This document shows, piece by piece, positions 14,453 to 33,057 of a stretch of DNA of 33,057 bases. A model generated the notes under the pieces. That model saw only the letters and a program-made list of their open reading frames with translations. It was not told the origin of the DNA and did not search any database. The stretch's first letter is position 1. Each line of letters opens with the position of its first letter. The stretch is from a virus (Duplodnaviria > Heunggongvirae > Uroviricota > Caudoviricetes): the IMG/VR virus record IMGVR_UViG_2713896897_000015, positions 1 through 33,057 of that record. One strand, 5' to 3'. The translations under genes and the position numbers were made by a program.

Positions 14453-14455
14453 CCG

Positions 14456-16011: not shown

Positions 16012-16014
16012 CGC

Positions 16015-16793: not shown

Positions 16794-16807
16794 ACGGAGT
16801 AAACACC

Positions 16808-18221: not shown

Positions 18222-18666
18222 GTTTAAGCGTTTTGAAGACCGGCTGACCGGACTGATTGAATCGCTGTCACCGTCAGGGCGTCGGCGACTGAGCACCGAA
18301 CTGGCGAAACGTCTGCGGCAGAGTCAGCAGCGCCGGGTGATGGCACAGAAAGCCCCGGACGGCACACCCTACGCGCCACGCCAGCAGCAGAGCGCCAGAA
18401 AAAAGACCGGTCGTGTTAAGCGAAAAATGTTTGCGAAACTTATCACCAGTCGTTTTTTGCATATCCGCGCCAGCCCGGAACAGGCAGCAATGGAATTTTA
18501 CGGCGGGAAGTCACCGAAAATCGCCAGTGTGCATCAGTTTGGTCTGTCGGAAGAAAACCGGAAAGACGGTAAGAAAATTGATTATCCGGCGCGTCCTCTG
18601 CTCGGCTTTACCGGTGAGGATGTGCAGATGATTGAAGAGATTATTCTGGCTCACCTCGACCGTTAG
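18214..18666 (+). CDS. S: Tail completion protein S
   Basis: 150-aa ORF overlapping the R stop, P2 S length. Confidence 0.9.
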   Translation: MNEFKRFEDRLTGLIESLSPSGRRRLSTELAKRLRQSQQRRVMAQKAPDGTPYAPRQQQSARKKTGRVKRKMFAKLITSRFLHIRASPEQAAMEFYGGKSPKIASVHQFGLSEENRKDGKKIDYPARPLLGFTGEDVQMIEEIILAHLDR

Positions 18667-18732
18667 TTGTGCCATTCCCGACACCTCATCGTCACATTGC
18701 CGCCAGTATGACCCGGCGGCATCCTTCCCGTT

Positions 18733-19368: not shown

Positions 19369-19712
19369 CTGCGCGTTATCTCGGAATGAATCGCAGTGAT
19401 GGCCTGACGGTCACTGACCTTGAGCATATCAGCCAGAGTATCGGCGATATCCTGCGCACACCGGTCGGCTCACGGGTGATGCGTCGTGATTACGGCTCGT
19501 TGCTGGCATCAATGATTGACCAGCCGCAGACCCCGGCGCTTGAGTTGCAGATTAAGGTCGCCTGTTACATGGCGGTGCTGAAATGGGAACCCCGCGTCAC
19601 CCTGTCATCCGTCACCACTGAGCGCAGTTTTGACGGGCGAATGACGGTCACGTTAACCGGCCAGCACAACGACACCGGCCAGCCACTTTCGTTAACCATC
19701 CCTGTGAGTTGA
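19365..19712 (+). CDS. W: Baseplate protein W (gp25-like)
   Basis: 115-aa ORF overlapping the V stop. Confidence 0.9.
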   Translation: MTARYLGMNRSDGLTVTDLEHISQSIGDILRTPVGSRVMRRDYGSLLASMIDQPQTPALELQIKVACYMAVLKWEPRVTLSSVTTERSFDGRMTVTLTGQHNDTGQPLSLTIPVS

Positions 19713-19716
19713 AACC

Positions 19717-20625
19717 ATGCCGATTATCGACCTGAACCAGCTACCCGCACCGGATGTGGTCGAGGAGCTGGACTTTGAAACCATTCTTGCCGAACGCAAG
19801 GCGACACTGATTTCCCTTTACCCGGAAGACCAGCAGGAGGCGGTTGCCCGTACCCTGACGCTGGAATCTGAGCCTCTCGTCAAACTGCTGGAGGAAAATG
19901 CTTATCGTGAGCTTATCTGGCGTCAGCGTGTGAATGAGGCCGCACGGGCGGTGATGCTGGCCTGTGCCGCCGGTAATGACCTTGATGTGATTGGTGCCAA
20001 TTACAACACCACGCGCCTGATTATCACCCCGGCAGATGATTCGACTATCCCGCCGACACCGGCAGTGATGGAGTCTGACACCGATTATCGTCTGCGTATT
20101 CAGCAGGCGTTTGAGGGCTTAAGCGTCGCCGGGTCGGTGGGTGCCTATCAGTATCATGGTCGCAGTGCCGACGGGCGCGTCGCGGATATCTCTGTCACCA
20201 GTCCGTCTCCGGCCTGCGTCACTATCTCTGTGCTGTCACGTGAAAATAACGGTGTCGCATCCGAAGACCTGCTGGCTGTGGTGCGTAACGCCCTTAATGG
20301 CGAGGACGTCAGGCCGGTGGCTGACCGTGTGACCGTGCAGTCTGCCGCCATCGTTGAATACCAGATAAACGCCACGCTTTACCTTTACCCTGGCCCCGAA
20401 AGCGAACCCATTCGCGCTGCCGCCGTGAAAAAACTGGAAGCGTATATCACGGCACAGCACCGGCTGGGGCGCGACATCCGTCTGTCTGCCATTTATGCCG
20501 CTTTGCATGTGGAAGGCGTGCAGCGTGTCGAACTGACTGCACCGCTGGCCGACATCGTGCTCAACAGTACGCAGGCGTCTTTCTGTACCGAATACCGCGT
20601 CGTGACCGGAGGCTCGGATGAGTGA
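19717..20625 (+). CDS. J: Baseplate wedge protein J
   Basis: 302-aa ORF, P2 J length. Confidence 0.9.
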   Translation: MPIIDLNQLPAPDVVEELDFETILAERKATLISLYPEDQQEAVARTLTLESEPLVKLLEENAYRELIWRQRVNEAARAVMLACAAGNDLDVIGANYNTTRLIITPADDSTIPPTPAVMESDTDYRLRIQQAFEGLSVAGSVGAYQYHGRSADGRVADISVTSPSPACVTISVLSRENNGVASEDLLAVVRNALNGEDVRPVADRVTVQSAAIVEYQINATLYLYPGPESEPIRAAAVKKLEAYITAQHRLGRDIRLSAIYAALHVEGVQRVELTAPLADIVLNSTQASFCTEYRVVTGGSDE

Positions 20626-21229
20626 TTCGCGACTGCTGCCGACTGGCTCATCACCGCTTGAAGTTGCCGCCGCAAAAGCCTGTGCGGAAATTGAAAAAAC
20701 GCCGGTCAGTATTCGTGAGCTGTGGAACCCGGATACCTGCCCGGCAAATCTGCTGCCGTGGCTGGCGTGGTCATTTTCGGTTGACCGCTGGGATGATAAG
20801 TGGCCGGAAGCGACAAAACGCGCTGTTATCCGCGATGCGTATTTCATTCACTGCCATAAGGGCACTATAGGCGCAATCCGGCGTGTGGTGGAGCCGCTCG
20901 GCTATCTGATTGAGGTGAGGGAGTGGTGGCAACTCAATGAGGAGCCGGGGACGTTCCGCATCGTTGTTGGCGTGCTTGAGCAGGGTATTACCGAGGAAAT
21001 GTATCAGGAGCTGGAGCGCCTCGTTGCTGATGCAAAACCGGCGAGCCGCCATCTGACGGGACTGGCTATCAGTTTAAGTACAACCGGCAACATTTTTGCC
21101 GGTGCGGGATGCTATCACGGCGACGCCCTGACGGTTTATCCCTACACCCCGGAGGCCATTATTGTCGGAGGGGATTATTTCCCGGCCTCGGCCATTCATT
21201 TAATTGATAACCTGAGAGTAAACGCATGA
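20618..21229 (+). CDS. I: Baseplate protein I
   Basis: 203-aa ORF overlapping the J stop; N-terminus MSDSRLLPTGSSPLEVAAAKA as in P2 I, with a longer C-terminus. Confidence 0.88.
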   Translation: MSDSRLLPTGSSPLEVAAAKACAEIEKTPVSIRELWNPDTCPANLLPWLAWSFSVDRWDDKWPEATKRAVIRDAYFIHCHKGTIGAIRRVVEPLGYLIEVREWWQLNEEPGTFRIVVGVLEQGITEEMYQELERLVADAKPASRHLTGLAISLSTTGNIFAGAGCYHGDALTVYPYTPEAIIVGGDYFPASAIHLIDNLRVNA

Positions 21230-22725
21230 CAGTGAAATACTACGCCATTCTGACTAATCAGGGCGCAGCACGGCTGGCTAACGCGACGATGCTCGGCAGT
21301 AAGCTGAATCTGACGCAAATGGCCGTTGGTGATGCGAATGGTGTCTTGCCGACACCAGACCCGGCACAGACAAAACTGATTAACCAGAAACGCATCGCGC
21401 CGCTGAATCTTCTGAGTGTTGACCCGAACAACCAGAGCCAGATTATTGCGGAGCAAATCATCCCTGAGAACGAGGGCGGATTCTGGATCCGTGAGATTGG
21501 GCTTTATGATGATGAAGGCGTACTCATTGCGGTGGCAAACTGCCCGGAAACGTACAAACCGCAGTTGCAGGAAGGAAGCGGTCGTACCCAGACTATCCGC
21601 ATGATTCTGGTTGTCTCGAATACCGAAGCCATCACGCTGAAAATCGACCCGTCGGTGGTACTGGCGACCCGTAAATACGTGGATGATGAAGTCCTGGAAT
21701 TAAGGCTGTATGTGGATGACCAGATGAGAAACCACATTGCCGCACAGGATCCTCATACCCAGTATGCACAGAAACATAATCCGACATTTACCGGAGAACC
21801 AAAAGCGCCGACGCCTGCCGCAGGAAATAACACCACGCGGATTGCGACTACTGCGTTTGTTCAGGCCGCTATTACCGCTCTGATTAACGGTGCGCCAGCC
21901 ACGCTGGACACACTGAAAGAAATTGCCGCAGCCATTAACAATGACCCGAAATTCAGCACCACCATTAACAATGAGCTGGCACTGAAAGCGCCGCTGTCGA
22001 GTCCCGCACTTACCGGAACGCCAACAGCACCTACTGCGGCACAGTCGGTCAACAATACACAGATTGCCACCACGGCTTTTGTGAAATCAGCAATTGCGGC
22101 AATGGTGGGTTCTGCCCCTGCGGCACTGGATACACTGAATGAACTGGCGGCGGCGCTGGGGAATGACCCTAACTTTTCAACAACAGTGCTTAATGCACTG
22201 GCAGGCAAACAACCGCTGGACAATACGCTTACTAATTTGAGTGGAAAGGATGTTGCTGGTCTTCTCGCATACCTTGGTTTGGGAGAAGGCTCTGCATTAC
22301 CGGTTGGGGTGCCTGTTCCGTGGCCTTCAGCTACGCCGCCAACAGGCTGGCTGAAATGCAATGGCGCTGCCTTTGATAAGGTTAAATATCCCCGTCTTGC
22401 TACAGCATATCCATCAGGGAAACTACCTGATCTCCGCGGTGAGTTTATTCGTGGCTGGGATGACGGGCGCGGTATTGATACAGGGCGTGCTTTATTGAGT
22501 ATTCAGAGTGATGAAGTCAGAAAGCTCGCATTAAAATACTGGGGACCAGCTTCAAACAGTTCACCATCAAAAACATTTGCACTCAGCGACAGTGCCGGTG
22601 GCGGGTTGTACACGGATGGAATAAGTCAGGCAAGTGGTGGGATTATCAACGCTTTTCAGCTCCCTGGCGGTAACGAAACCCGCCCACGAAATGTTGCATT
22701 TAACTATATCGTGAGGGCTGCATAA
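21226..22725 (+). CDS. H: Tail fibre protein H (constant N-terminal part fused to the currently expressed variable C-terminal domain)
   Basis: 499-aa ORF with internal about 75-aa tandem repeats (IATTAFV...LDTLKEIAAA...NDPKFSTT) and a tail-collar-type C-terminus (PVGVPVPWP...GWLKCNG...YPRL...LPDLRGEFIRG). It is shorter than P2 H (669 aa). The inversion crossover site lies inside it at 22262-22287. Confidence 0.9.
   Translation: MTVKYYAILTNQGAARLANATMLGSKLNLTQMAVGDANGVLPTPDPAQTKLINQKRIAPLNLLSVDPNNQSQIIAEQIIPENEGGFWIREIGLYDDEGVLIAVANCPETYKPQLQEGSGRTQTIRMILVVSNTEAITLKIDPSVVLATRKYVDDEVLELRLYVDDQMRNHIAAQDPHTQYAQKHNPTFTGEPKAPTPAAGNNTTRIATTAFVQAAITALINGAPATLDTLKEIAAAINNDPKFSTTINNELALKAPLSSPALTGTPTAPTAAQSVNNTQIATTAFVKSAIAAMVGSAPAALDTLNELAAALGNDPNFSTTVLNALAGKQPLDNTLTNLSGKDVAGLLAYLGLGEGSALPVGVPVPWPSATPPTGWLKCNGAAFDKVKYPRLATAYPSGKLPDLRGEFIRGWDDGRGIDTGRALLSIQSDEVRKLALKYWGPASNSSPSKTFALSDSAGGGLYTDGISQASGGIINAFQLPGGNETRPRNVAFNYIVRAA
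21826..22240 (+). repeat. Intragenic tandem repeat (about 225-nt period, two copies) within H
   Basis: Protein repeats NTTRIATTAFVQAAITALINGAPATLDTLKEIAAAINNDPKFSTTINNELALKAP and NNTQIATTAFVKSAIAAMVGSAPAALDTLNELAAALGNDPNFSTTVLNALAGKQP. Coordinates are approximate. Confidence 0.6.
22262..22287. repeat. Invertase crossover site (gix/hix-like), left, inside H
   Basis: TTCTCGCATACCTTGGTTTGGGAGAA is an inverted copy of the site at 24086-24111 (21 of 26 identical, 14 contiguous). It has the TTC..AAACC/GGTTT..GAA architecture of Gin/Hin/Pin/Cin recombination sites. Confidence 0.7.
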
Positions 22726-23327
22726 TGGATAATGCTGTATTAAATAGCGAGTTTATTGCCACGAAGGCGGGGAATATTACCGTCTATAACTATGATAGTG
22801 AAACACGGGAATATATTTCCACATCAACTGAATATCTTGCTGTCGGCGTCGGTATCCCTGCATGTTCTTGTTTAGATGCTCCTGGCTCACATAAAGCTGG
22901 TTATGCAATTTGCCGTTCTGCAGATTTTAACTCATGGGAATATGTGCCAGACCATCGCGGTGAAATCGTCTATAGCACCGAAACAGGAGAATCAAAAGAA
23001 ATCACAGCTCCGGGTGATTACCCTGAAAAGACAACCACTATCGCCACGTTAACGCCATACGATAAATGGGATGGTGAGAAATGGGTGACGGATACCGAGG
23101 CACAGCATAGCGCCGCAGTAGACGCGGCAGAAGCACAACGTCAGTCACTGATTGATACTGCAATGGCTTCCATCAGTCTGATTCAACTGAAATTGCAGGC
23201 CGGACGTAAACTAACGCAGGCAGAAACAACCCGGCTTAACGCTGTGCTGGATTACATTGACGCGGTGACGGCAACAGATACCGGCACCGCGCCGGATGTC
23301 ATCTGGCCTGAACTGCCGGAGGCGTAG
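22725..23327 (+). CDS. G: Tail fibre assembly chaperone (G; Mu U-like)
   Basis: 200-aa ORF directly after H (TAATG overlap). The C-terminal motif (...LIDTAMASISLIQ...LNAVLDYIDAV...APDVIWPELP) is shared with the convergent minus-strand paralog. Confidence 0.85.
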   Translation: MDNAVLNSEFIATKAGNITVYNYDSETREYISTSTEYLAVGVGIPACSCLDAPGSHKAGYAICRSADFNSWEYVPDHRGEIVYSTETGESKEITAPGDYPEKTTTIATLTPYDKWDGEKWVTDTEAQHSAAVDAAEAQRQSLIDTAMASISLIQLKLQAGRKLTQAETTRLNAVLDYIDAVTATDTGTAPDVIWPELPEA

Positions 23328-23742
23328 GCCATTCATTATCTGGCGCACCGGAAGTATCGACCAGTTCCAGTGCGTCCAGGTAATCCAGCCACAAATTATA
23401 TTGCGCCAGTTCGTCACCTTTCAGACGACCAATAGCTGCTTTGCCAGGCCATTGCTTACTGTTCATATATTCGTTGGCATTATCAATAAGATTTTGCTTT
23501 TGAGCTGTGGCAAGGAGTATTGCTTCTTCAGGAGCCATTGGTGGAATATCAACCCACTCAGGTTGTCCATCATCATTTGCACCGCGCGCTTTCCCTTCAG
23601 GTGGTGTTCCTGAATAAGTCAAAAATATTTCATCAGATACTGGTGTAATATCATCCGGTAAGCTGTCATATGAGCGATATAGCTCCAGCATATCTACCGG
23701 ATAAAAAGCTAACGTCGTCCGTGAAAAATAATAATTACTCAT
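23299..23742 (-). CDS. Alternative tail fibre assembly chaperone (G'), used in the inverted orientation
   Basis: 147-aa minus-strand ORF with a Tfa-type C-terminus (NLIDNANEYMNSKQW...LWLDYLDALELVDTSGAPDNEWP). It converges on G and overlaps its 3' end by 29 nt. Confidence 0.8.
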   Translation of the reverse strand: MSNYYFSRTTLAFYPVDMLELYRSYDSLPDDITPVSDEIFLTYSGTPPEGKARGANDDGQPEWVDIPPMAPEEAILLATAQKQNLIDNANEYMNSKQWPGKAAIGRLKGDELAQYNLWLDYLDALELVDTSGAPDNEWPTPPAVQAR

Positions 23743-23743
23743 A

Positions 23744-24085
23744 TCAGCACCCTATTGCAAACCAGCGAAAATTATAATTGCCACCAGAAGCATCACAGCG
23801 TAGAAGAAATCCTGTCCTGGTCATATTCCCTGCTGCCCCGGCAACAATTTTTCCGCCACCATTATCGTAGGACGTCACCACCTGAAAACATTGCGACGGA
23901 AAAGCGATTGGGAAATTCATCTCATTGCCTGTCGAGCCTACATAACCCGTACCTGCGTCTCCTGCCCCCCATTGGATAATCAATCCTCCCGGTAACTTCT
24001 GATATCCCTTGCTGGCAATGCTGCCAGAAAAAGAACTCATATCCGGTATCTGACCTGAACCTGTTCCTACATTCCGTTTTGCCGC
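23744..24085 (-). CDS. Promoterless alternative tail-fibre C-terminal cassette (Hv'), fused in-frame to H after inversion
   Basis: The minus-strand frame through the 24086-24111 site encodes ...VGLGE-AAKRNVGTGSGQIPDMSSFSGS...NYNFRWFAIGC-stop, in the same codon register as LGLGE at the left site in H. Its stop is 1 nt before the G' start. Confidence 0.7.
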   Translation of the reverse strand, partial: AAKRNVGTGSGQIPDMSSFSGSIASKGYQKLPGGLIIQWGAGDAGTGYVGSTGNEMNFPIAFPSQCFQVVTSYDNGGGKIVAGAAGNMTRTGFLLRCDASGGNYNFRWFAIGC

Positions 24086-24111
24086 TTCTCCCAAACCAAC
24101 GTTTATGAAAA
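24086..24111. repeat. Invertase crossover site (gix/hix-like), right
   Basis: TTCTCCCAAACCAACGTTTATGAAAA, an inverted partner of 22262-22287, lies about 50 bp upstream of the invertase gene. Confidence 0.7.
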
Positions 24112-24160
24112 TGCAGAGATAACGGGCAACTGGCATCATCTCCGGTTTTTATTCAGGGGG

Positions 24161-24760
24161 ATGCTCATGCTTATTGGCTATGTACGCGTGTCAACAAATG
24201 ACCAGAACACGGAATTGCAGCGTAACGCGCTGGAGTGTGCAGGATGTGAGCTGATTTTTGAGGATAAAATCAGCGGCACGAAGTCCGACCGACCGGGACT
24301 GAAAAAACTGCTCAGAACATTATCAGCAGGTGACACTCTGGTGGTCTGGAAGCTGGACAGGCTGGGGCGTAGTATGCGGCATCTGGTCATTCTGGTTGAG
24401 GAGCTGCGCGAACGCGGCGTTAATTTTCGCAGCCTGACGGATGCTATTGATACCAGCACGCCGATGGGGCGCTTTTTCTTTCATGTGATGGGTGCCCTGG
24501 CTGAAATGGAGCGAGAACTCATTGTCGAGCGGACACGCGCCGGACTGGAAGCGGCCAGAGCCAAAGGTCGTATTGGTGGCAGACGACCGAAACTCACCAC
24601 GAGTGAGTGGGAGCAGGTCGGACGGTTGCTGGCTGCGGGGGAATCTCGTCAACGTGTGGCGCTGATTTTTGATATTGGCCTGTCCACGCTCTATAAAAAA
24701 TTCCCCTCATCAGCGACAAAGAATAAATTGTGTCATCCCTTAGCCAACCGGGACAAATAG
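24161..24760 (+). CDS. Serine DNA invertase (Gin/Hin/Pin/Cin family)
   Basis: 199-aa ORF; N-terminal catalytic domain with the GYVRVSTNDQ serine motif and a C-terminal HTH. AGGGGG RBS upstream; an alternative ATG lies at 24167. Confidence 0.93.
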   Translation: MLMLIGYVRVSTNDQNTELQRNALECAGCELIFEDKISGTKSDRPGLKKLLRTLSAGDTLVVWKLDRLGRSMRHLVILVEELRERGVNFRSLTDAIDTSTPMGRFFFHVMGALAEMERELIVERTRAGLEAARAKGRIGGRRPKLTTSEWEQVGRLLAAGESRQRVALIFDIGLSTLYKKFPSSATKNKLCHPLANRDK

Positions 24761-24819
24761 CCTGACATCTCCGGCACAACTGAAAATACCACTCACCCAT
24801 TAACCACGGAGTTAAACGG

Positions 24820-26010
24820 ATGAGTGACTATCATCACGGCGTGCAGGTGCTGGAGATTAACGACGGCACCCGCGTCATTTCCACCGTATCCACTGCCATT
24901 GTCGGCATGGTCTGCACGGCCAGCGATGCGGATGCGGAAACCTTCCCCCTCAATAAACCTGTGCTGATTACCAATGTGCAGAACGCAATTGCAAAGGCCG
25001 GTAAAAAAGGCACGCTGGCGGCATCGTTGCAGGCCATCGCTGACCAGTCAAAACCGGTCACCGTTGTCGTGCGCGTGGAAGACGGCACCGGTGATGACGA
25101 GGAAACGAAACTCGCGCAGACCGTTTCCAATATCATCGGCACCACCGACGAAAACGGTCAGTACACCGGACTGAAAGCCCTGCTGGCGGCGGAGTCGGTA
25201 ACTGGTGTTAAACCGCGTATTCTCGGCGTGCCGGGACTGGACACCAAAGAGGTGGCGGTTGCACTGGCATCAGTCTGTCAGAAGCTGCGCGCTTTCGGGT
25301 ATATCAGCGCATGGGGTTGTAAAACCATTTCCGAGGTGAAAGCCTACCGCCAGAATTTCAGCCAGCGTGAGCTGATGGTCATCTGGCCGGATTTCCTCGC
25401 ATGGGATACGGTCGCCAGTACCACCGCCACCGCGTATGCCACCGCCCGTGCGCTGGGTCTGCGCGCTAAAATTGACCAGGAGCAGGGCTGGCATAAAACG
25501 CTGTCCAACGTCGGGGTGAACGGTGTTACCGGCATCAGCGCGTCCGTATTCTGGGATTTGCAGGAGTCCGGCACCGATGCTGACCTGCTTAACGAGTCAG
25601 GCGTCACAACGCTGATTCGCCGTGACGGTTTCCGCTTCTGGGGTAACCGTACCTGCTCTGATGACCCGCTGTTCCTCTTTGAAAACTACACCCGCACCGC
25701 GCAGGTGCTGGCCGACACGATGGCTGAGGCGCACATGTGGGCGGTGGACAAGCCCATCACCGCAACGCTGATTCGCGACATCATTGACGGCATCAATGCC
25801 AAATTCCGTGAGTTGAAAACAAACGGCTATATCGTGGATGCGACCTGCTGGTTCAGCGAAGAATCCAACGATGCGGAAACCCTCAAGGCCGGAAAACTGT
25901 ATATCGACTACGACTATACACCGGTACCTCCTCTTGAAAACCTGACCCTGCGCCAGCGTATTACCGATAAATACCTGGCAAATCTGGTCACCTCGGTTAA
26001 CAGCAATTAA
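24820..26010 (+). CDS. FI: Contractile tail sheath protein
   Basis: 396-aa ORF, P2 FI length, followed by the tube gene. Confidence 0.95.
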   Translation: MSDYHHGVQVLEINDGTRVISTVSTAIVGMVCTASDADAETFPLNKPVLITNVQNAIAKAGKKGTLAASLQAIADQSKPVTVVVRVEDGTGDDEETKLAQTVSNIIGTTDENGQYTGLKALLAAESVTGVKPRILGVPGLDTKEVAVALASVCQKLRAFGYISAWGCKTISEVKAYRQNFSQRELMVIWPDFLAWDTVASTTATAYATARALGLRAKIDQEQGWHKTLSNVGVNGVTGISASVFWDLQESGTDADLLNESGVTTLIRRDGFRFWGNRTCSDDPLFLFENYTRTAQVLADTMAEAHMWAVDKPITATLIRDIIDGINAKFRELKTNGYIVDATCWFSEESNDAETLKAGKLYIDYDYTPVPPLENLTLRQRITDKYLANLVTSVNSN

Positions 26011-26022
26011 GGAGCCTGACCG

Positions 26023-26541
26023 ATGGCAATGCCGCGCAAACTCAAGTTAATGAACGTCTTTCTGAACGGCTACAGCTATCAGGGCGTCGCGAAGTCCGTC
26101 ACGCTACCAAAACTGACCCGTAAGCTCGAAAACTATCGCGGTGCGGGGATGAACGGCAGCGCACCGGTAGACCTCGGCCTTGATGACGATGCGCTGTCAA
26201 TGGAGTGGTCGCTCGGTGGCTTCCCGGATTCGGTTATCTGGGAGCTTTACGCCGCAACCGGTGTGGATGCCGTACCGATTCGTTTTGCAGGTTCTTACCA
26301 GCGCGACGATACCGGCGAAACGGTGGCCGTCGAGGTGGTCATGCGTGGACGTCAGAAAGAAATCGACACCGGCGAGGGCAAACAGGGAGAAGACACCGAG
26401 TCGAAAATCTCCGTGGTCTGCACCTATTTCCGGCTGACGATGGACGGTAAGGAGCTGGTCGAAATCGACACCATCAACATGATTGAGAAGGTGAACGGCG
26501 TCGACCGGCTGGAGCAACACCGCCGCAATATCGGCCTGTGA
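26023..26541 (+). CDS. FII: Tail tube protein
   Basis: 172-aa ORF, P2 FII length. Confidence 0.95.
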   Translation: MAMPRKLKLMNVFLNGYSYQGVAKSVTLPKLTRKLENYRGAGMNGSAPVDLGLDDDALSMEWSLGGFPDSVIWELYAATGVDAVPIRFAGSYQRDDTGETVAVEVVMRGRQKEIDTGEGKQGEDTESKISVVCTYFRLTMDGKELVEIDTINMIEKVNGVDRLEQHRRNIGL

Positions 26542-26597
26542 TTTTCATCCGGTCAGCCTGGCTGACCGGTTAACCCCGATTCAGAAGTGAGAAAACC

Positions 26598-26873
26598 ATG
26601 AACAAAGAAAATGTCATTACCCTGGAAAATCCGGTCAAGCGTGGTGAGCAGGTCATCGAACAGGTCACGCTGATGAAACCTAACGCCGGGACGCTGCGCG
26701 GTGTCAGTCTGGCTGCGGTCGCGAACTCCGAAGTCGATGCACTGATTAAAGTGCTGCCGCGTATGACGGCACCGATGCTGACCGAGCAGGAGGTCGCCGC
26801 GCTGGAACTGCCTGACCTTGTGGCGCTGGCCGGTAAGGTGGTCGGTTTTTTGTCGCCGAACTCGGTGCAGTGA
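26598..26873 (+). CDS. E: Tail assembly chaperone E
   Basis: 91-aa ORF upstream of the tape-measure gene, ending just after a GGTTTTTTG slippery run. Confidence 0.9.
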   Translation: MNKENVITLENPVKRGEQVIEQVTLMKPNAGTLRGVSLAAVANSEVDALIKVLPRMTAPMLTEQEVAALELPDLVALAGKVVGFLSPNSVQ

Positions 26874-27025
26874 CGTTTCCAAAAAATCTCTCGGTCGATG
26901 ACCTGATGGCGGATGTGGCAGTGATATTTCACTGGCCGCCATCAGAACTGTATCCCATGAGCCTGACCGAACTCATCACATGGCGCGAAAAGGCGCTCCG
27001 GCGAAGTGGAAACACGAATGAGTAA
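26598..27025 (+). CDS. E+E' frameshift-extended tail assembly chaperone (programmed -1 frameshift at TTTTTTG, 26846-26852)
   Basis: Hand translation of the -1 frame from the slippery site runs open for about 58 codons (...VTFPKNLSVDDLMADVAVIFHWPPSELYPMSLTELITWREKALRRSGNTNE) to TAA at 27023-27025, overlapping the T start. This is the conserved chaperone arrangement upstream of tape-measure genes. Confidence 0.7.
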
Positions 27026-29465
27026 CAATGTAAAATTACAGGTATTGCTCAGGGCTGTTGACCAGGCATCCCGCCCGTTTAAATCCATCCGCACAGCGAG
27101 CAAGTCGCTGTCGGGGGATATCCGGGAAACACAAAAATCACTGCGCGAGCTGAACGGTCACGCATCCCGTATTGAGGGATTCCGCAAGACCAGCGCACAG
27201 CTCGCCGTGACTGGTCATGCACTTGAAAAGGCACGGCAGGAAGCCGAAGCCCTTGCCACACAGTTTAAAAATACCGAACGTCCGACCCGTGCTCAGGCGA
27301 AAGTGCTGGAATCCGCAAAGCGTGCGGCGGAGGACTTACAGGCGAAATATAACCGCCTGACGGACTCCGTTAAACGCCAGCAGCGGGAACTGGCCGCTGT
27401 GGGAATTAATACCCGCAATCTTGCACATGATGAGCAGGGACTGAAAAACCGTATCAGTGAAACCACCGCACAGCTTAACCGTCAGCGTGACGCACTGGCG
27501 CGTGTCAGTGCACAACAGGCAAAACTTAACGCAGTAAAACAGCGTTATCAGGCCGGAAAGGAACTGGCCGGAAATATGGCCTCAGTGGGCGCTGCCGGTG
27601 TGGGGATTGCGGCGGCGGGAACGATGGCCGGAGTTAAGCTGCTGATGCCCGGTTATGAGTTTGCGCAGAAAAACTCAGAATTGCAGGCTGTGCTCGGTGT
27701 GGCAAAAGACTCCGCCGAAATGGCTGCACTACGCAAGCAGGCGCGCCAGCTCGGCGACAATACCGCAGCCTCGGCAGATGATGCAGCCGGTGCGCAGATT
27801 ATTATTGCGAAAGCCGGTGGGGATGTTGATGCCATTCAGGCGGCAACGCCGGTCACGCTGAATATGGCGCTGGCGAACCGTCGCACAATGGAAGAAAACG
27901 CCGCCCTGCTGATGGGGATGAAATCCGCCTTTCAGCTTTCAAACGATAAGGTCGCTCATATCGGGGATGTTCTCTCCATGACGATGAACAAAACCGCCGC
28001 CGATTTTGACGGCATGAGCGATGCGCTGACCTATGCCGCACCTGTGGCAAAAAATGCCGGTGTCAGCATTGAAGAAACCGCCGCAATGGTCGGGGCGCTG
28101 CATGATGCAAAAATCACAGGCTCAATGGCGGGGACGGGAAGCCGTGCCGTGTTAAGCCGCCTGCAGGCACCGACGGGAAAAGCATGGGATGCACTCAAAG
28201 AGCTTGGCGTGAAAACCTCAGACAGCAAAGGAAACACCCGGCCAATATTTACCATTCTGAAAGAAATGCAGGCCAGTTTTGAGAAAAACCGGCTCGGTAC
28301 TGCCCAGCAGGCTGAATACATGAAAACTATTTTCGGGGAGGAGGCCAGCTCAGCCGCTGCCGTGCTGATGACTGCCGCCTCAACCGGAAAGCTGGACAAA
28401 CTGACCGCTGCGTTTAAAGCCTCAGACGGGAAGACTGCCGAGCTGGTAAATATCATGCAGGACAACCTCGGCGGTGACTTTAAGGAGTTTCAGTCCGCTT
28501 ATGAGGCGGTGGGGACAGACCTGTTTGACCAGCAGGAAGGCGCACTGCGTAAGCTCACACAGACGGCCACAAAGTATGTGTTAAAACTCGACGGCTGGAT
28601 CCAGAAAAACAAATCACTGGCGTCAACCATTGGCATCATTGCCGGTGGCGCGCTGGCGCTTACTGGCATCATCGGTGCAATTGGTCTTGTAGCCTGGCCG
28701 GTTATCACTGGCATCAATGCCATCATCGCGGCAGCAGGCGCAATGGGGGCAATCTTCACGACGGTTGGTAGTGCCGTTATGACGGCCATCGGGGCGATTA
28801 GCTGGCCGGTTGTGGCCGTGGTGGCTGCAATTGTCGCCGGGGCGTTGCTTATCCGTAAATACTGGGAGCCTGTCAGCGCATTCTTTGGCGGTGTGGTGGA
28901 AGGGCTGAAAGCGGCATTTGCGCCGGTGGGGGAACTGTTCACGCCACTTAAGCCGCTGTTTGACTGGCTGGGTGAAAAGTTACAGGCCGCGTGGCAGTGG
29001 TTTAAAAACCTGATTGCCCCCGTCAAAGCCACCCAGGACACCCTGAACCGTTGCCGTGACACGGGTGTCATGTTCGGGCAGGCACTGGCTGACGCGTTGA
29101 TGCTGCCGCTTAATGCGTTCAACAAACTGCGCAGCGGTATTGACTGGGTACTGGAAAAACTCGGTGTTATCAACAAAGAGTCAGACACACTTGACCAGAC
29201 CGCCGCCAGAACTCAAGCCGCCACGTATGGCAGCGGTGGTTATATTCCGGCGACCAGCTCTTATGCAGGCTATCAGGTTTATCAGCCGGTCACGGCACCG
29301 GCTGGCCGCTCTTATGTGGACCAGAGTAAAAACGAATATCACATCAGCCTGACGGGTGGTACTGCGCCGGGGACACAGCTTGACCGCCAGTTACAGGATG
29401 CGCTCGAAAAATACGAGCGGGATAAACGTGCGCGCGCCCGTGCCAGCATGATGCATGACGGTTAA
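27018..29465 (+). CDS. T: Tail tape-measure protein
   Basis: ORF 27006-29465 starts at GTG. The ATG at 27018 gives 815 aa, the P2 T length; coiled-coil N-terminus and glycine/alanine-rich hydrophobic segments. Confidence 0.93.
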   Translation: MSNNVKLQVLLRAVDQASRPFKSIRTASKSLSGDIRETQKSLRELNGHASRIEGFRKTSAQLAVTGHALEKARQEAEALATQFKNTERPTRAQAKVLESAKRAAEDLQAKYNRLTDSVKRQQRELAAVGINTRNLAHDEQGLKNRISETTAQLNRQRDALARVSAQQAKLNAVKQRYQAGKELAGNMASVGAAGVGIAAAGTMAGVKLLMPGYEFAQKNSELQAVLGVAKDSAEMAALRKQARQLGDNTAASADDAAGAQIIIAKAGGDVDAIQAATPVTLNMALANRRTMEENAALLMGMKSAFQLSNDKVAHIGDVLSMTMNKTAADFDGMSDALTYAAPVAKNAGVSIEETAAMVGALHDAKITGSMAGTGSRAVLSRLQAPTGKAWDALKELGVKTSDSKGNTRPIFTILKEMQASFEKNRLGTAQQAEYMKTIFGEEASSAAAVLMTAASTGKLDKLTAAFKASDGKTAELVNIMQDNLGGDFKEFQSAYEAVGTDLFDQQEGALRKLTQTATKYVLKLDGWIQKNKSLASTIGIIAGGALALTGIIGAIGLVAWPVITGINAIIAAAGAMGAIFTTVGSAVMTAIGAISWPVVAVVAAIVAGALLIRKYWEPVSAFFGGVVEGLKAAFAPVGELFTPLKPLFDWLGEKLQAAWQWFKNLIAPVKATQDTLNRCRDTGVMFGQALADALMLPLNAFNKLRSGIDWVLEKLGVINKESDTLDQTAARTQAATYGSGGYIPATSSYAGYQVYQPVTAPAGRSYVDQSKNEYHISLTGGTAPGTQLDRQLQDALEKYERDKRARARASMMHDG

Positions 29466-29479
29466 GGAGGTGACGAAAA

Positions 29480-29959
29480 ATGATGCTCGCGTTAGGTATG
29501 TTTGTTTTTATGCGCCAGACGCTGCCACACCAGACCATGCAGCGTGAATCAGATTATCGCTGGCCGTCAAATTCCTGTATCGGTAAACGGGATGCCTTTC
29601 AGTTTCTCGGTGTGGGTGAGGAAAACATTACGCTTGCAGGCGTGCTTTATCCCGAACTGACCGGCGGGAAGCTGACGATGACCACGCTCAGGCTGATGGC
29701 AGAGGAAGGCCGGGCGTGGCCGTTGCTGGATGGCACCGGCATGATTTACGGCATGTATGTCATCAGCAGGGTGAGTGAAACAGGGAGTATTTTCTTTGCA
29801 GACGGCACACCCAGAAAAATTGATTTTACGCTGTCGCTCACCCGCGTTGATGAATCACTGGCCACGCTTTATGGCGATATCGGTAAACAGGCGGAATCGT
29901 TCATCGGTAAGGCTGGCAGTATGGCGACCAGATTCACGGGTATGACGGGGGCGGGATAA
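29480..29959 (+). CDS. U: Tail protein U
   Basis: 159-aa ORF, P2 U length; the stop overlaps the D start. Confidence 0.9.
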   Translation: MMLALGMFVFMRQTLPHQTMQRESDYRWPSNSCIGKRDAFQFLGVGEENITLAGVLYPELTGGKLTMTTLRLMAEEGRAWPLLDGTGMIYGMYVISRVSETGSIFFADGTPRKIDFTLSLTRVDESLATLYGDIGKQAESFIGKAGSMATRFTGMTGAG

Positions 29960-31122
29960 TGCTGGATGCGCTGACATTTGATGCAGGCAGTACGCTGACG
30001 CCGGATTACATGCTGATGCTCGACAGCAGGGATATTACCGGCAATATCAGCGACCGTCTGATGAGCATGACCCTGACAGATAACCGGGGCTTTGAGGCTG
30101 ACCAGCTTGATATTGAACTGAACGATGCCGACGGGCAGGTCGGGCTGCCGGTTCGTGGCGCTGTCCTGACGGTGTATATCGGCTGGAAAGGTTTTGCCCT
30201 GGTATGCAAAGGGAAATTTACCGTTGATGAGGTTGAACACCGGGGCGCACCGGATGTGGTCACCATCCGCGCCCGGAGTGCAGATTTTCGCGGGACGCTC
30301 AATTCCCGCCGGGAAGGCTCCTGGCATGACACCACGCTCGGTGCGATTGTTGAGGCGATAGCCACCCGTAACAGGCTGGAAGCCAGTGTCGCTCCGTCAC
30401 TGGCCGGAATTAAAATCCCGCACATCGACCAGTCGCAGGAGTCCGATGTGAAATTCCTGACCCGTCTTGCTGAACGCAACGGCGGCGAGGTGTCGGTAAA
30501 AATGGGAAAACTGTTGTTTCTCAAAGCGGGGCAGGGGGTGACGGCCAGCGGTAAAAAAATCCCGCAGGTCACCATAACCCGCAGCGACGGCGACCGCCAT
30601 CATTTTGCGATTGCTGACCGTGGAGCCTATACCGGCGTAACGGCAAAGTGGTTACACACCAAAGACCCGAAACCACAAAAGCAGAAGGTAAAACTGAAAC
30701 GCAAAAAGAAAGAAAAACACCTGCGCGCACTGGAGCACCCGAAAGCAAAACCGGTCACGCAGAAGAAAGCGCCAAAAGTACCGGAAGCGCGCGAAGGTGA
30801 ATACATGGCCGGTGAGGCTGACAACGTTTTTGCCCTGACTACGGTATATGCCACGAAAGCGCAGGCCATGCGCGCCGCTCAGGCGAAGTGGGATAAACTG
30901 CAACGGGGGGTGGCGGAGTTCTCCATCAGCCTGGCTACCGGTCGGGCTGATATTTACACGGAAACGCCGGTCAGAGTGTCAGGCTTTAAGCGCGTCATAG
31001 ACGAGCAGGACTGGACAATCACTAAGGTGATACATTTTCTGAATAATAGCGGCTTCACGACGTCCTTAGAGCTTGAGGTCAGGCTTTCTGATGTGGAGTA
31101 CGAAACAGAAGATTATGAGTGA
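29959..31122 (+). CDS. D: Tail protein D (baseplate hub-like)
   Basis: 387-aa ORF, P2 D length, last tail gene before ogr. Confidence 0.93.
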   Translation: MLDALTFDAGSTLTPDYMLMLDSRDITGNISDRLMSMTLTDNRGFEADQLDIELNDADGQVGLPVRGAVLTVYIGWKGFALVCKGKFTVDEVEHRGAPDVVTIRARSADFRGTLNSRREGSWHDTTLGAIVEAIATRNRLEASVAPSLAGIKIPHIDQSQESDVKFLTRLAERNGGEVSVKMGKLLFLKAGQGVTASGKKIPQVTITRSDGDRHHFAIADRGAYTGVTAKWLHTKDPKPQKQKVKLKRKKKEKHLRALEHPKAKPVTQKKAPKVPEAREGEYMAGEADNVFALTTVYATKAQAMRAAQAKWDKLQRGVAEFSISLATGRADIYTETPVRVSGFKRVIDEQDWTITKVIHFLNNSGFTTSLELEVRLSDVEYETEDYE

Positions 31123-31203
31123 TGTCTTTTGTTTATCTGTTTGTTTTATAAGGATAAATTAACTAAAATGGCACTATCAACAAAACCGGAAGAGGTGCTC
31201 GCG

Positions 31204-31422
31204 ATGTTTCATTGTCCTTTATGCCAGCATGCCGCACATGCGCGTACAAGCCGCTATATCACTGACACGACAAAAGAGCGTTATCACCAGTGCCAGAACG
31301 TGAATTGCAGCGCCACGTTCATCACTTATGAGTCGGTACAGCGATACATCGTGAAGCCGGGAGAAGTCCACGCCGTGAGGCCGCACCCGTTGCCGTCAGG
31401 GCAGCAAATTATGTGGATGTAA
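31204..31422 (+). CDS. ogr: Late-gene transcriptional activator Ogr (C4 zinc finger)
   Basis: ORF 31129-31422. The ATG at 31204 gives 72 aa, MFHCPLCQHAAHARTSRYITDTTKERYHQCQNVNCSATF..., with the Cys4 arrangement CxxC-N22-CxxxxC and the P2 Ogr length. Confidence 0.93.
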   Translation: MFHCPLCQHAAHARTSRYITDTTKERYHQCQNVNCSATFITYESVQRYIVKPGEVHAVRPHPLPSGQQIMWM

Positions 31423-31435
31423 TTACAAACAGAAA

Positions 31436-31460
31436 GCCCCTCAGTCGAGGGGCTTTTTTT
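31436..31460 (+). terminator. Rho-independent terminator after ogr
   Basis: GCCCCTC-AGTC-GAGGGGC (7-bp perfect stem) followed by seven T residues. Confidence 0.65.
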
Positions 31461-31524
31461 GTCGATGTGGTCAATGTGTGGACGCGACCAGAAATAAATC
31501 CTTTTATTTCAATTTGTTGTACGT

Positions 31525-31551
31525 AAAAAATAAGCCCGTGTAAGGGAGATT
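31525..31551. repeat. attR core (27 bp, ogr-proximal junction), identical to the 3' end of cyaR
   Basis: AAAAAATAAGCCCGTGTAAGGGAGATT is a direct repeat of 371-397 with two mismatches. Confidence 0.7.
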
Positions 31552-31611
31552 ACACAGGCTAAGGAGGTGGTTCCTGGTACAGCTAGCATTTTATGGGTTA
31601 TGTTTTTCAGC
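31525..31611 (-). ncRNA. cyaR: CyaR (RyeE) small regulatory RNA, CRP-activated, Hfq-dependent
   Basis: The minus strand reads GCUGAAAAACAUAACCCAUAAAAUGCUAGCUGUACCAGGAACCACCUCCUUAGCCUGUGUAAUCUCCCUUACACGGGCUUAUUUUUU, which matches the enterobacterial CyaR sequence as I remember it, including the terminator hairpin and U-tail. It lies downstream of yegQ on the same strand, as in E. coli K-12. Confidence 0.8.
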
Positions 31612-31645
31612 GAAACGGATGATAACCATAATAAATGCAGCTGTA

Positions 31646-31661
31646 TGTGATCGGTTTCTAA
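31646..31661. promoter_or_regulatory. Candidate CRP-binding site of the cyaR promoter
   Basis: TGTGATCGGTTTCTAA (one good TGTGA half-site and one weak) is centred about 42 bp upstream of the inferred CyaR 5' end, the class II CRP position. CyaR is known to be CRP-dependent. Confidence 0.35.
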
Positions 31662-31695
31662 GAATTTTCCATCCGGGAAAAATAATCGAAATTAA

Positions 31696-33057
31696 TTACT
31701 TACCGTGCGGATTACGCGTGGTTTCCCCGGAGAAATTACGCATCAACAGCGCGTAATTCAGCTCAAGATCCTGCGGTACTGGGATCCACACAGTATAACC
31801 ATCGCCAGGTGCGACCGGCATTGCTTCACCTTTGGCGTTTTCCATGTGCTCAAGGGTAAAGTTAATGTTGCCTTGTGGCGTCATCAGCTCAAGGCTGTCG
31901 CCAACGGAGAATTTATTTTTCACCGCTACAGCAGCAAAGTTGCCTTTGCGCTCACCGGTAAACTCACCAACAAACTGCTGGCGATCAGAAACCGAATAAC
32001 CGTATTCGTAGTTCTGATAATCGTCGTGAGTATGGCGACGCAGGAATCCTTCGGTGTAACCACGATGCGCCAGACCTTCCAGCGTTTCCAGCAGGCTGGT
32101 ATCGAACGGTTTGCCCGCCGCCGCATCATCAATCGCTTTACGATAAACCTGCGCGGTACGTGCGCAATAGTAGAAAGATTTGGTACGGCCTTCGATTTTC
32201 AGCGAATGCACGCCCATTTTGGTCAGGCGCTCAACGTGGGCGATGGCGCGCAGATCTTTCGAGTTCATGATGTAAGTGCCGTGTTCATCTTCGAACGCGG
32301 TCATATATTCGCCCGGACGCTGGGCTTCTTCGATCATAAACACTTTATCAGTTGGCGCGCCGATCCCCAGCGTCGGTTCAACGTTTTGCACCGGAATCGG
32401 TTCGTACTTGTGTACGATGTTGCCGACGTCATCTTCTTTGCCTTCCTGTACGTTGTACTCCCAGCGGCAGGCGTTAGTGCAGGTGCCCTGGTTCGGGTCG
32501 CGTTTGTTGATATAGCCAGAGAGCAGGCAGCGACCGGAGTAGGCCATGCACAATGCGCCGTGAACGAAGATCTCAAGCTCCATATCCGGCACCTGATTAC
32601 GGATCTCTTCAATCTCTTCCAGCGACAGCTCGCGAGAGAGGATCACGCGGGTCAGGCCCATTTGCTGCCAGAATTTCACCGTTGCCCAGTTCACGGCGTT
32701 AGCCTGTACTGAGAGGTGGATCGGCATTTCAGGGAAGTGCTCACGCACCAGCATAATCAGCCCCGGATCGGACATAATCAGCGCATCCGGCCCCATTTCC
32801 ACCACCGGTTTCAGGTCACGGATAAAAGTTTTCAGCTTGGCGTTGTGCGGTGCAATATTGACCACGACATAAAACTTTTTCCCCAGAGCGTGTGCTTCAT
32901 TGATGCCGAGCTGGAGATTTTCATGGTTGAATTCATTGTTGCGCACGCGCAGGGAGTAACGCGGCTGGCCCGCATAAACAGCATCTGCGCCATAAGCGAA
33001 AGCGTAACGCATATTTTTTAGCGTTCCCGCCGGGGAAAGGAGTTCCGGTTTAAACAT
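31696..33057 (-). CDS. yegQ: U32-family peptidase-like protein YegQ (TrhP, tRNA hydroxylation protein)
   Basis: 453-aa ORF whose N-terminus MFKPELLSPAGTLKNMRYAFAYGADAVYAGQPRYSLRVRNNEF matches E. coli YegQ from memory. The start codon is the last three bases of the window. G+C and codon usage look chromosomal. Confidence 0.92.
   Translation of the reverse strand: MFKPELLSPAGTLKNMRYAFAYGADAVYAGQPRYSLRVRNNEFNHENLQLGINEAHALGKKFYVVVNIAPHNAKLKTFIRDLKPVVEMGPDALIMSDPGLIMLVREHFPEMPIHLSVQANAVNWATVKFWQQMGLTRVILSRELSLEEIEEIRNQVPDMELEIFVHGALCMAYSGRCLLSGYINKRDPNQGTCTNACRWEYNVQEGKEDDVGNIVHKYEPIPVQNVEPTLGIGAPTDKVFMIEEAQRPGEYMTAFEDEHGTYIMNSKDLRAIAHVERLTKMGVHSLKIEGRTKSFYYCARTAQVYRKAIDDAAAGKPFDTSLLETLEGLAHRGYTEGFLRRHTHDDYQNYEYGYSVSDRQQFVGEFTGERKGNFAAVAVKNKFSVGDSLELMTPQGNINFTLEHMENAKGEAMPVAPGDGYTVWIPVPQDLELNYALLMRNFSGETTRNPHGK

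What the first reader, a model, noticed from the sequence alone, without database searches (positions are those of the whole stretch)
31525..31611. Prophage integrated into the 3' end of the cyaR sRNA gene; the att core equals the CyaR terminator
The 27-bp right att core (31525-31551) is exactly the last 27 nt of CyaR (3' arm of the terminator hairpin plus the U-tail). Integration regenerated an intact CyaR at the right junction, with ogr converging on it 65 bp away and separated by a strong terminator (31436-31460). The left junction keeps only an orphan 27-nt CyaR 3' pseudo-copy with two substitutions (371-397). This is a case of sRNA-gene targeting, analogous to tRNA-gene targeting by other integrases. 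CyaR expression or termination could be affected by convergent ogr transcription.
Basis: partly seen in the sequence, partly recalled or inferred. Interest (0 to 1): 0.5.

Follow-up and report, generated by a model that had tools for sequence, protein, structure and literature searches.

The report
P2 prophage inserted at cyaR tail
This is an ordinary phage P2-type prophage sitting in its long-known attachment site at the 3' end of the small-RNA gene cyaR. The one modest twist is that the host is Escherichia albertii-like, so the phage has swapped in its own two-base-different copy of the CyaR terminator.

Summary
CyaR is at 31525-31611 on the minus strand (Rfam 100.7 bits; 87/87 identical to E. 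coli K-12 cyaR). Its last 27 nt (31525-31551) are identical to the annotated attP core of phage P2. A 25/27 copy lies at 371-397, next to a P2 integrase gene (99.4% identical to P2 Int).

The K-12 record annotates cryptic prophage PR-X as overlapping the cyaR 3' end. The E. coli W genome paper lists "cyaR RNA" as a P2 insertion site. About 22% of complete E. coli genomes carry ogr beside cyaR.

Two corrections apply.
- The left copy is not a decayed pseudo-copy. It is the host's own CyaR tail. The same sequence is the native cyaR 3' end in 50 Enterobacteriaceae species. In the E. albertii type strain, window 1-397 runs straight into window 31552 onward.
- The lysogen's CyaR is therefore a chimera, with a host promoter and body and a phage-donated terminator arm (G73A, A75G). 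Predicted hairpin stability is unchanged.
- The direct repeat is 74 nt, not 27. Positions 324-370 are a relic P arm of an older P2-like prophage, cut by an IS3-family fragment.

Convergent ogr plus its terminator is the same layout as in K-12, where CyaR functions. Interest is low.

The parts
1..323 (-). Fragment of an IS3-family insertion sequence (orfA pseudogene and IS end). It lies outside the prophage and truncates the older P-arm relic.
   Evidence: blastn gives 87% identity over 17-323 to features annotated 'IS3 family transposase'. The translated minus strand hits Pfam HTH_Tnp_1, E 1e-8. The same fragment sits at the same place in E. albertii NBRC 107761 (99.0% over 1-397).
324..370 (+). 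Relic of the P arm (part of one Int arm-type repeat plus the IHF region) of an older P2-like prophage. It was already present before this prophage integrated.
   Evidence: It forms part of the 74-nt direct repeat with 31478-31524. It aligns to the P2 and K-12 PR-X P arms. It is present next to cyaR in the E. albertii type strain, which lacks this prophage.
371..397 (-). attL core. This is the host's original last 27 nt of CyaR (allele ...CCTGCG...), displaced from the gene by integration. It has no 5' arm and so forms no hairpin.
   Evidence: 25/27 match to the P2 core. Its inner 20 nt (378-397, the part that was searched) are identical to the native cyaR 3' end in 50 species representatives, and the whole 27 nt are identical in the E. 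albertii type strain. The fold of 371-440 on the minus strand is unstructured: -6.2 kcal/mol, z +1.2.
398..511 (+). P' arm of the prophage attachment site. By homology to P2, the Cox sites map to about 414-487 and the Int arm-type repeats to about 485-511.
   Evidence: Window 324-1897 is 98.7% identical to P2 (L004 1846-3419). Feature positions were transferred from the P2 annotation.
477..1490 (-). int, the P2-type tyrosine integrase.
   Evidence: Pfam Int_N and Phage_integrase. 99.4% amino-acid identity to P2 Int.
398..31524 (+). Body of a Peduovirus (P2-like) prophage, 31.1 kb, running from int-C-cox at the left to the late genes and D-ogr at the right.
   Evidence: About 97% identity over 73-78% of the first 25 kb to P2-like phages. 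Cox, C-like HTH, Int and Ogr have Pfam hits. gpD is 98.5% and Ogr 100% identical to P2.
31204..31422 (+). ogr, the late-gene activator, convergent with cyaR.
   Evidence: Pfam Ogr_Delta, E 1e-21. 100% identical to P2 Ogr.
31436..31460 (+). Intrinsic terminator of ogr and the late F operon.
   Evidence: -19.6 kcal/mol, z -4.3. The homologous P2 feature is annotated 'rho-independent terminator for ogr transcript and F operon'.
31462..31524 (+). P arm of this prophage. By homology to P2, the Int arm-type sites map to about 31462-31489 and the IHF site to about 31493-31526.
   Evidence: Near-identity to P2 24293-24357. Annotation.
31525..31551 (-). attR core. It is the last 27 nt of the expressed CyaR. 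At least its distal 15 nt (including nt 73 and 75 of CyaR) come from the phage.
   Evidence: Identical to the P2 attP core. It differs from the E. albertii native allele at exactly the two positions that the left copy retains.
31525..31611 (-). cyaR (ryeE) sRNA gene. It is intact and chimeric, with a host 5' part and a phage-donated 3' end.
   Evidence: Rfam RF00112, 100.7 bits. 87/87 identical to K-12 cyaR. It differs from E. albertii CyaR at G73A and A75G. The terminator hairpin is -15.9 kcal/mol against -16.2 for the native allele.
31612..31695 (-). cyaR promoter region, of host type.
   Evidence: 0/84 differences to the E. albertii type strain and 1/84 to K-12.
31696..33057 (-). yegQ/trhP, the chromosomal gene upstream of cyaR.
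   Evidence: Pfam Peptidase_U32 and its C-terminal domain. Annotated yegQ/trhP in E. coli hits. The cyaR-yegQ stretch 31478-33057 is 98.0% identical to E. albertii NBRC 107761, and 31524-33057 is about 95% identical to E. coli.

Best explanation
A P2-type phage, with Int, Ogr and attP essentially identical to phage P2 itself, integrated by Int-mediated site-specific recombination into its standard chromosomal site. That site is the 27-bp sequence forming the loop, 3' arm and U tail of the intrinsic terminator of the CRP-dependent sRNA gene cyaR, downstream of yegQ. The host is Escherichia albertii-like.

Before integration the site read: IS3 fragment, 47-bp relic of an older P2-like P arm, native cyaR tail (allele CCTGCG), cyaR body, yegQ.

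Recombination inside the core placed the phage's copy of the tail (allele CCCGTG, the E. coli/P2 type) onto the cyaR body at attR. It moved the host's own tail to attL, next to int. The expressed CyaR therefore has a host promoter and seed region and a phage-donated terminator arm with two changed bases. These changes move a G.U wobble within the stem but leave the predicted stability unchanged.

What is shown: the sequences, the junctions, the empty site and the allele origins. What is inferred: that Int (with IHF) catalysed the event, and that at least one strand exchange lies on the cyaR-proximal side of core position 15. ogr converges on cyaR but has its own strong terminator, so no effect on CyaR is expected.
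For: - CyaR identity: Rfam 100.7 bits; 87/87 identical to K-12 cyaR.
- The core is identical to the annotated P2 attP core, and similarity to P2 stops exactly at 31551 and resumes at 398.
- Int is 99.4% and Ogr 100% identical to P2; the prophage body is about 97% identical to P2-like phages.
- The core pair is not due to chance.
- Pre-integration site: in E. albertii NBRC 107761, window 1-397 (99.0%) is contiguous with window 31552-33057 (98.0%).
- The left-copy allele is contiguous with the cyaR body in all 50 genome-representative hits, i.e. it is the gene's own 3' end. In 42 of them the flank beyond it is non-phage; in 8 a P-arm-like sequence adjoins it.
- The cyaR promoter is of host type (0/84 differences to E. 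albertii), while CyaR nt 73 and 75 are of P2/E. coli type.
- Hairpin stability is -15.9 vs -16.2 kcal/mol.
- Prior knowledge: K-12 PR-X (2167183-2167811) overlaps cyaR (2167114-2167200); PMC3032704 Table 2 lists 'cyaR RNA' as the site of Wphi2 (P2), K-12 ogr-D' and P2*B.
- 1205 of 5426 complete E. coli genomes have ogr abutting cyaR-yegQ. In every ogr-less row listed, the match starts exactly at the core edge (query 395/396 = window 31524/31525).
- 27 attR and 4 attL junctions of P2-like prophages at cyaR are found in IMG/VR.
Against: - The identity of the window's own strain is unknown. The pre-integration state is inferred from a 98-99% identical relative, not from a cured derivative.
- The position of strand exchange is constrained only by two polymorphisms. 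If these lay inside the overlap region, heteroduplex segregation could give the same pattern.
- No expression data exist for CyaR or ogr in this lysogen.
Confidence: 0.93

Rival explanations
1. One reading: the left 27-mer is a copy of the same core that has decayed by two point mutations since integration, and the right core and CyaR are simply the unaltered host gene.
For: The two copies differ at only two positions. In E. coli lysogens the host and phage cores are identical, so this would be the default assumption.
Against: The inner 20 nt of the left copy, which span both variable positions, match exactly the native cyaR tail of 50 species. The full 27 nt match the E. albertii type strain, which also shares the same IS and relic flank. 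The right copy matches P2 and E. coli, while the adjoining cyaR promoter and yegQ are E. albertii-type. Two independent mutations recreating a pre-existing allele exactly is very unlikely.
Confidence: 0.03
2. The prophage entered by RecA-dependent homologous recombination between the phage P arm plus core and the resident 74-bp relic plus core, rather than by Int-mediated site-specific recombination.
For: The pre-existing site offers 74 bp of 84% similarity to the phage attP region.
Against: - The longest perfect stretches are only about 12 bp, far below efficient RecA substrates.
- The novel joints coincide exactly with the annotated right edge of the P2 core (397/398 and 31551/31552).
- Both polymorphisms segregate as expected for an exchange within the core.
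- An intact P2 Int and arms are present.
Confidence: 0.03
3. The left relic and core are the remains of a tandem second copy of the same prophage (a double lysogen), later deleted by the IS, not a pre-existing scar.
For: P2 can form tandem lysogens (general knowledge). The relic is P-arm-like and abuts an IS end.
Against: The relic differs from this prophage's own P arm: the 74-nt repeat is 84% identical overall, and 10 of its 12 mismatches fall within the 47 relic positions. It is present, with the IS, in the E. albertii type strain that lacks the prophage.
Confidence: 0.01

Closest known systems
Phage P2 primary attachment site in E. coli and the K-12 cryptic remnant PR-X (ogrK-yegZ) beside cyaR
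   Same: Same 27-bp core, the same P arm-terminator-ogr layout converging on cyaR, and the same neighbour yegQ/trhP. The core forms the 3' end of cyaR.
   Different: Here the prophage is full length (31.1 kb) with int, and the host is E. albertii-like. Host and phage cores differed at 2 of 27 positions before integration. K-12 keeps only ogr-D', with a partial core on the yegR side.
Wphi2 (P2-like prophage of E. coli W) and P2*B of E. coli B, listed with insertion site 'cyaR RNA' (PMC3032704, Table 2)
   Same: P2-type prophages at cyaR, explicitly named as an RNA-gene insertion site in print.
   Different: Those hosts are E. coli, where the cores are identical, so no allele replacement is visible.
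Integration of 186-type and other P2-like phages and islands into the 3' ends of tRNA/tmRNA genes (phage 186 in tRNA-Ile; Fels-2 and SopE-phi in ssrA)
   Same: The phage carries a copy of the 3' end of a small stable RNA gene, restores the gene on integration and leaves a displaced 3' fragment at the far junction (PMC3448106; shown here).
   Different: The target is an Hfq-dependent regulatory sRNA terminator, not a tRNA-like fold. The P2 specialist review described P2-type integrases as integrating 'between other genes'.
Other sRNA loci used as prophage att sites (rybB for P2-like elements in E. coli W/B/Crooks; sdsR/ryeB in Salmonella)
   Same: sRNA genes serve as anchors for horizontally acquired DNA (Table 2; PMC3333887 conclusion).
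   Different: Different sRNA and different integrase specificity.

Membership tests
CyaR/RyeE sRNA (Rfam RF00112) | Scores above the family gathering threshold over the full covariance model | tested here: met
   100.7 bits vs 47, model positions 1-85/85, E 3e-19
CyaR/RyeE sRNA (Rfam RF00112) | Sequence identity to the experimentally defined E. coli K-12 cyaR, and synteny downstream of yegQ/trhP | tested here: met
   87/87 identical to K-12 b4438; yegQ lies immediately upstream
CyaR/RyeE sRNA (Rfam RF00112) | Rho-independent terminator hairpin plus U tail (the Hfq-binding 3' module) | tested here: met
   11-bp stem, 6-nt loop, U-rich tail; -15.9 kcal/mol, z -7.1
CyaR/RyeE sRNA (Rfam RF00112) | cAMP-CRP-dependent transcription and Hfq-dependent target regulation | not testable with these tools
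   The promoter region is 1/84 different from K-12 and 0/84 from E. albertii. Function was not measured.
P2-type (Peduovirus) prophage with the P2 Int/attP system | Tyrosine integrase orthologous to P2 Int, adjacent to the att site | tested here: met
   Pfam Int_N and Phage_integrase; 99.4% identical to P2 Int; the gene ends 80 nt from the core
P2-type (Peduovirus) prophage with the P2 Int/attP system | 27-bp core identical to the P2 attP core, present as a direct repeat at both prophage ends | tested here: met
   attR core 27/27 and attL core 25/27
P2-type (Peduovirus) prophage with the P2 Int/attP system | P and P' arms with Int arm-type repeats, IHF and Cox sites flanking the core | tested here: met
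   Sequence near-identity to the annotated P2 features. Protein binding was not tested.
P2-type (Peduovirus) prophage with the P2 Int/attP system | An unoccupied site in a relative that contains a single core and joins the two flanks | tested here: met
   E. albertii NBRC 107761 joins window 1-397 to 31552 onward. The E. coli O157:H7 empty site carries the core within cyaR.
P2-type (Peduovirus) prophage with the P2 Int/attP system | Complete P2 gene set (C, cox, replication gene A, capsid, tail, lysis, ogr) and inducibility | tested here: inconclusive
   About 97% identity over 73-78% of the first 25 kb to P2-like phages, plus D and ogr. Not every gene was checked for integrity, and viability is untested.
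RNA-gene 3'-end targeting with gene restoration (tRNA/tmRNA-type att sites) | attB overlaps the 3' end of a small RNA gene. The element supplies a replacement 3' end, and a displaced 3' fragment remains at the other junction. | tested here: met
   The core is the last 27 nt of CyaR. The phage allele is on the gene and the host allele is at attL.

The most novel reading that the evidence does not exclude
P2-type phages may act as agents of allele replacement for the CyaR terminator and Hfq-binding module. The window shows the mechanism directly: E. albertii-type cyaR has acquired the P2/E. coli-type 3' arm.

The 'empty' E. coli site itself keeps a P-arm relic. The 15-mer TCGATGTGGTCAATG lies 48 nt from the core, and this flank is present in 5375 of 5426 genomes. 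The E. coli allele CCCGTG differs from that of E. albertii, E. whittamii, Escherichia sp. E1V33 and more than 40 other species.

The species-wide E. coli cyaR 3' end could therefore itself be a fixed, phage-donated sequence left by an ancient P2-like prophage that decayed in place.
Probability: 0.35. Interest if true: 0.4.

Novelty: already known. Interest (0 to 1): 0.2.

Why it matters
It matters little as a discovery. P2 integration at the cyaR terminator is annotated in E. coli K-12 and published, and it occurs in about a fifth of sequenced E. coli.

Its modest value is as a clean natural example, visible only because host and phage cores differ by two bases. It shows that integration replaces the 3' end of an sRNA with a phage-borne copy. 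It also constrains where P2 Int exchanges strands within the 27-bp core. Finally, it shows that the cyaR site accumulates layered prophage scars, including in genomes regarded as 'empty'.

Tried and rejected
- **Decayed pseudo-copy.** I tested whether the left core was one. It is rejected, because the allele is the native cyaR tail in 50 species and in the E. albertii empty site.
- **Second CyaR at the left junction.** None is there. Rfam finds only one copy, and the orphan tail does not fold.
- **E. coli host.** Rejected. yegQ is about 95% identical to all 5424 matching E. coli genomes, but the cyaR-yegQ stretch is 98% identical to E. albertii NBRC 107761.
- **Homologous recombination or tandem lysogeny** as the origin of the 74-nt repeat. 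Both are rejected (see rival explanations).
- **Literature.** Searches for an explicit statement linking the P2 att site to CyaR in the sRNA papers mostly led nowhere. De Lay & Gottesman 2009 and Karlsson 2006 are not held. The link was found in PMC3032704 Table 2 and in the K-12 annotation. One search failed because 'P2' is too short a term.
- **Terminator scan.** The simple scan did not list the ogr terminator on the plus strand. Folding and the P2 annotation show it is there.

Full report
**Observation**

The window contains one Rfam hit at gathering threshold. It is CyaR_RyeE at 31528-31613 on the minus strand, full length, 100.7 bits against a threshold of 47.

The 27-mer AAAAAATAAGCCCGTGTAAGGGAGATT is at 31525-31551. 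A copy with two mismatches (AAAAAATAAGCCTGCGTAAGGGAGATT) is at 371-397. No other match exists at up to three mismatches, and shuffles give none.

Small corrections are needed.
- The core comprises the last two bases of the 5' arm, the loop, the 3' arm and the U tail (fold).
- ogr ends at 31422, which is 102 nt from the CyaR 3' end. The '65 bp' is the distance from the terminator T run, which ends at 31460.

**What surrounds it**

To the right of cyaR lies yegQ/trhP (Peptidase_U32). To the left lies a P2-type prophage.
- Ogr (31204-31422) is 100% identical to P2 Ogr, and gpD is 98.5% identical.
- Int (477-1490, minus strand) is 99.4% identical to P2 Int.
- Cox and a C-type repressor follow.
- The first 25 kb of the prophage is about 97% identical to P2-like phages over 73-78% of its length.

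The GenBank record of P2 annotates the following features: the ogr/F-operon terminator, the Int P-arm site, the IHF site, a 27-bp attP core (24356-24382), Cox sites, and the P' arm overlapping the int 3' end. The window's right core is identical to that attP core. Similarity to P2 stops exactly at 31551 on the right and starts exactly at 398 on the left. This is a textbook attL/attR pair for P2 Int.

**The left junction is more than a 27-nt orphan**

The direct repeat is 74 nt (324-397 vs 31478-31551, 84% identity). Positions 324-370 align to the P arm of P2 and of the K-12 remnant. Positions 1-323 are a fragment of an IS3-family element. The DNA left of the left core is therefore the scar of an earlier P2-like prophage cut by an IS, not ordinary chromosome.

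**Origin of the two 'substitutions'**

I searched one genome per species for the left-copy allele (AAGCCTGCGTAAGGGAGATT). This gave 50 hits across Citrobacter, Salmonella, Atlantibacter, Lelliottia, Enterobacter, Siccibacter, Mangrovibacter, E. albertii, E. whittamii and Escherichia sp. E1V33. In all 50 it is contiguous with the body of cyaR, so it is the native cyaR tail. In 42 of these the flank beyond it is non-phage; in 8 a P-arm-like sequence adjoins it.

In E. albertii NBRC 107761, window 1-397 (99.0% identity: IS fragment, relic and this core) runs directly into window 31552-33057 (98.0%). That is the pre-integration site, and it identifies the host as E. albertii-like. Consistent with this, yegQ is only about 95% identical to every E. 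coli genome.

The left copy is therefore the host's original CyaR tail. The tail now attached to cyaR is the phage's. The lysogen's CyaR differs from E. albertii CyaR at G73A and A75G and equals the E. coli/P2 version. In contrast, the cyaR promoter region is 0/84 different from E. albertii and 1/84 different from K-12. The expressed sRNA gene is thus a host-phage chimera.

Both variants pair with the same 5' arm (GCCUGUGUAA), with one G.U wobble at a different position in each. The terminator hairpins fold at -15.9 and -16.2 kcal/mol. No functional change is predicted. The orphan tail at attL has no partner arm and does not fold.

**Mechanism**

The sequence data show three things:
- the attP-identical core;
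- junctions that fall exactly at the core edge;
- the host allele at attL and the phage allele at attR.

From these I infer that P2 Int, with IHF, recombined attP with the E. albertii site despite 2/27 mismatches. I also infer that at least one strand exchange lies on the cyaR-proximal side of core position 15. If the mismatches lay within the overlap region, segregation of a heteroduplex could give the same pattern, so the exchange point is only constrained, not mapped.

Homologous recombination with the 74-bp relic is unlikely. Perfect stretches are only about 12 bp, and the joints sit exactly at the core edge. Tandem lysogeny is excluded, because the relic and the IS exist in the type strain without the prophage.

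**Convergent ogr**

The terminator at 31436-31460 is strong (-19.6 kcal/mol) and is annotated as such in P2. The same ogrK-terminator-P arm-core-cyaR arrangement is present in K-12 MG1655. K-12 is, to my knowledge, the background in which CyaR was characterised. The arrangement is also present in 1205 of 5426 complete E. coli genomes. Interference with CyaR is therefore not expected to be a special property of this lysogen. It remains untested.

**Comparison with what is known**

- The K-12 RefSeq record annotates 'cryptic prophage PR-X' at 2167183-2167811, overlapping cyaR at 2167114-2167200.
- The E. coli W genome paper (PMC3032704, Table 2) lists 'cyaR RNA' as the insertion site of Wphi2 (P2), of K-12 ogr-D' and of P2*B. 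It lists rybB ncRNA and ssrA as further RNA-gene sites.
- A review of P2-like integrases describes RNA-gene 3'-end targeting with gene restoration for 186-type phages. It describes P2-type integration as mostly intergenic (PMC3448106).
- IMG/VR holds 27 attR and 4 attL junctions of P2-like prophages at cyaR carrying the CCTGCG core, with Citrobacter/Salmonella-type and Escherichia-type cyaR bodies.
- Citrobacter youngae and C. amalonaticus representatives have ogr next to cyaR, with a gpD homologue as well in the two C. youngae genomes.

The phenomenon is thus widespread and documented. The finding is a further instance of a known thing.

**What is mildly new**

Because the host and phage cores differ here, the replacement of an sRNA 3' end by a phage-borne copy is directly visible. 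In addition, the E. coli 'empty' site keeps a 15-nt exact P-arm motif (TCGATGTGGTCAATG) 48 nt from the core. That flank is present in 5375 of 5426 complete E. coli genomes. Together with the E. coli-specific CCCGTG allele, this allows the reading that the E. coli cyaR tail is itself a fixed phage donation. I rate that at about 0.35. It cannot be settled with the scans available.

**Verdict**

- Observation: confirmed.
- Interpretation: supported with corrections. The left copy is the host original. The repeat is 74 nt because of an older relic. The ogr distance is 102 nt.
- Novelty: already known.
- Interest: low (0.2).

Noticed in passing
window 6622-9150 (+): A two-gene PD-Lambda-5 anti-phage defence system. 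Protein A is 524 aa (PADLOC E 9e-168). Protein B is 294 aa (E 8e-122) and is a D12-class N6-adenine methyltransferase. It sits in the variable cargo region between the P2 early genes and the portal gene.
   Followed up: partly
window 22262-24760: An invertible tail-fibre segment. cix/gix-like inverted repeats lie at 22262-22288 and 24085-24111 (27 nt, 81% complementary). An alternative tail-fibre C-terminus (23744-24139, minus strand) and a tail-fibre assembly gene (23299-23742, minus strand) are in the inverted orientation. A serine invertase (24161-24760, plus strand; Resolvase + HTH_7) lies beside them.
   Followed up: partly
window 1-323: An IS3-family orfA fragment (pseudogene, minus strand) ends at about 323, exactly where the relic P arm begins. 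The identical arrangement is in E. albertii NBRC 107761 (L024), so the IS event predates this prophage.
   Followed up: yes
L002 2955-3029 (E. coli O157:H7 Z866); K-12 L001 about 2810-2880: The supposedly empty E. coli cyaR site carries a degenerate P2 P-arm relic (TCGATGTGGTCAATG plus further similarity) just outside the core. The flank is present in 5375 of 5426 complete E. coli genomes. In K-12 the yegR-side junction of PR-X keeps this relic plus only about 19 nt of core, fused to the D' pseudogene.
   Followed up: partly
L020, L025 (Citrobacter youngae), L051 (C. amalonaticus), L022/L038 (Salmonella diarizonae/arizonae), L032 (Huaxiibacter); IMG/VR loci L055-L085: P2-type P arms, and in the Citrobacter loci ogr (plus gpD homologues in L020 and L025), abut cyaR in several genera. 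They carry the CCTGCG core that matches those hosts' native cyaR. L055 and L078 are the attL and attR of one 34.9-kb IMG/VR prophage.
   Followed up: partly
L056, L063, L068, L070 (IMG/VR): These are attR junctions with an Escherichia-type cyaR body (ACACAGGC...ATTTTATGGG) that keep the CCTGCG tail next to a P2-like P arm. The outcome seen in the window (phage CCCGTG on the gene) is therefore not the only one in non-coli Escherichia. Either those phages carry the CCTGCG core or the exchange occurred elsewhere.
   Followed up: no
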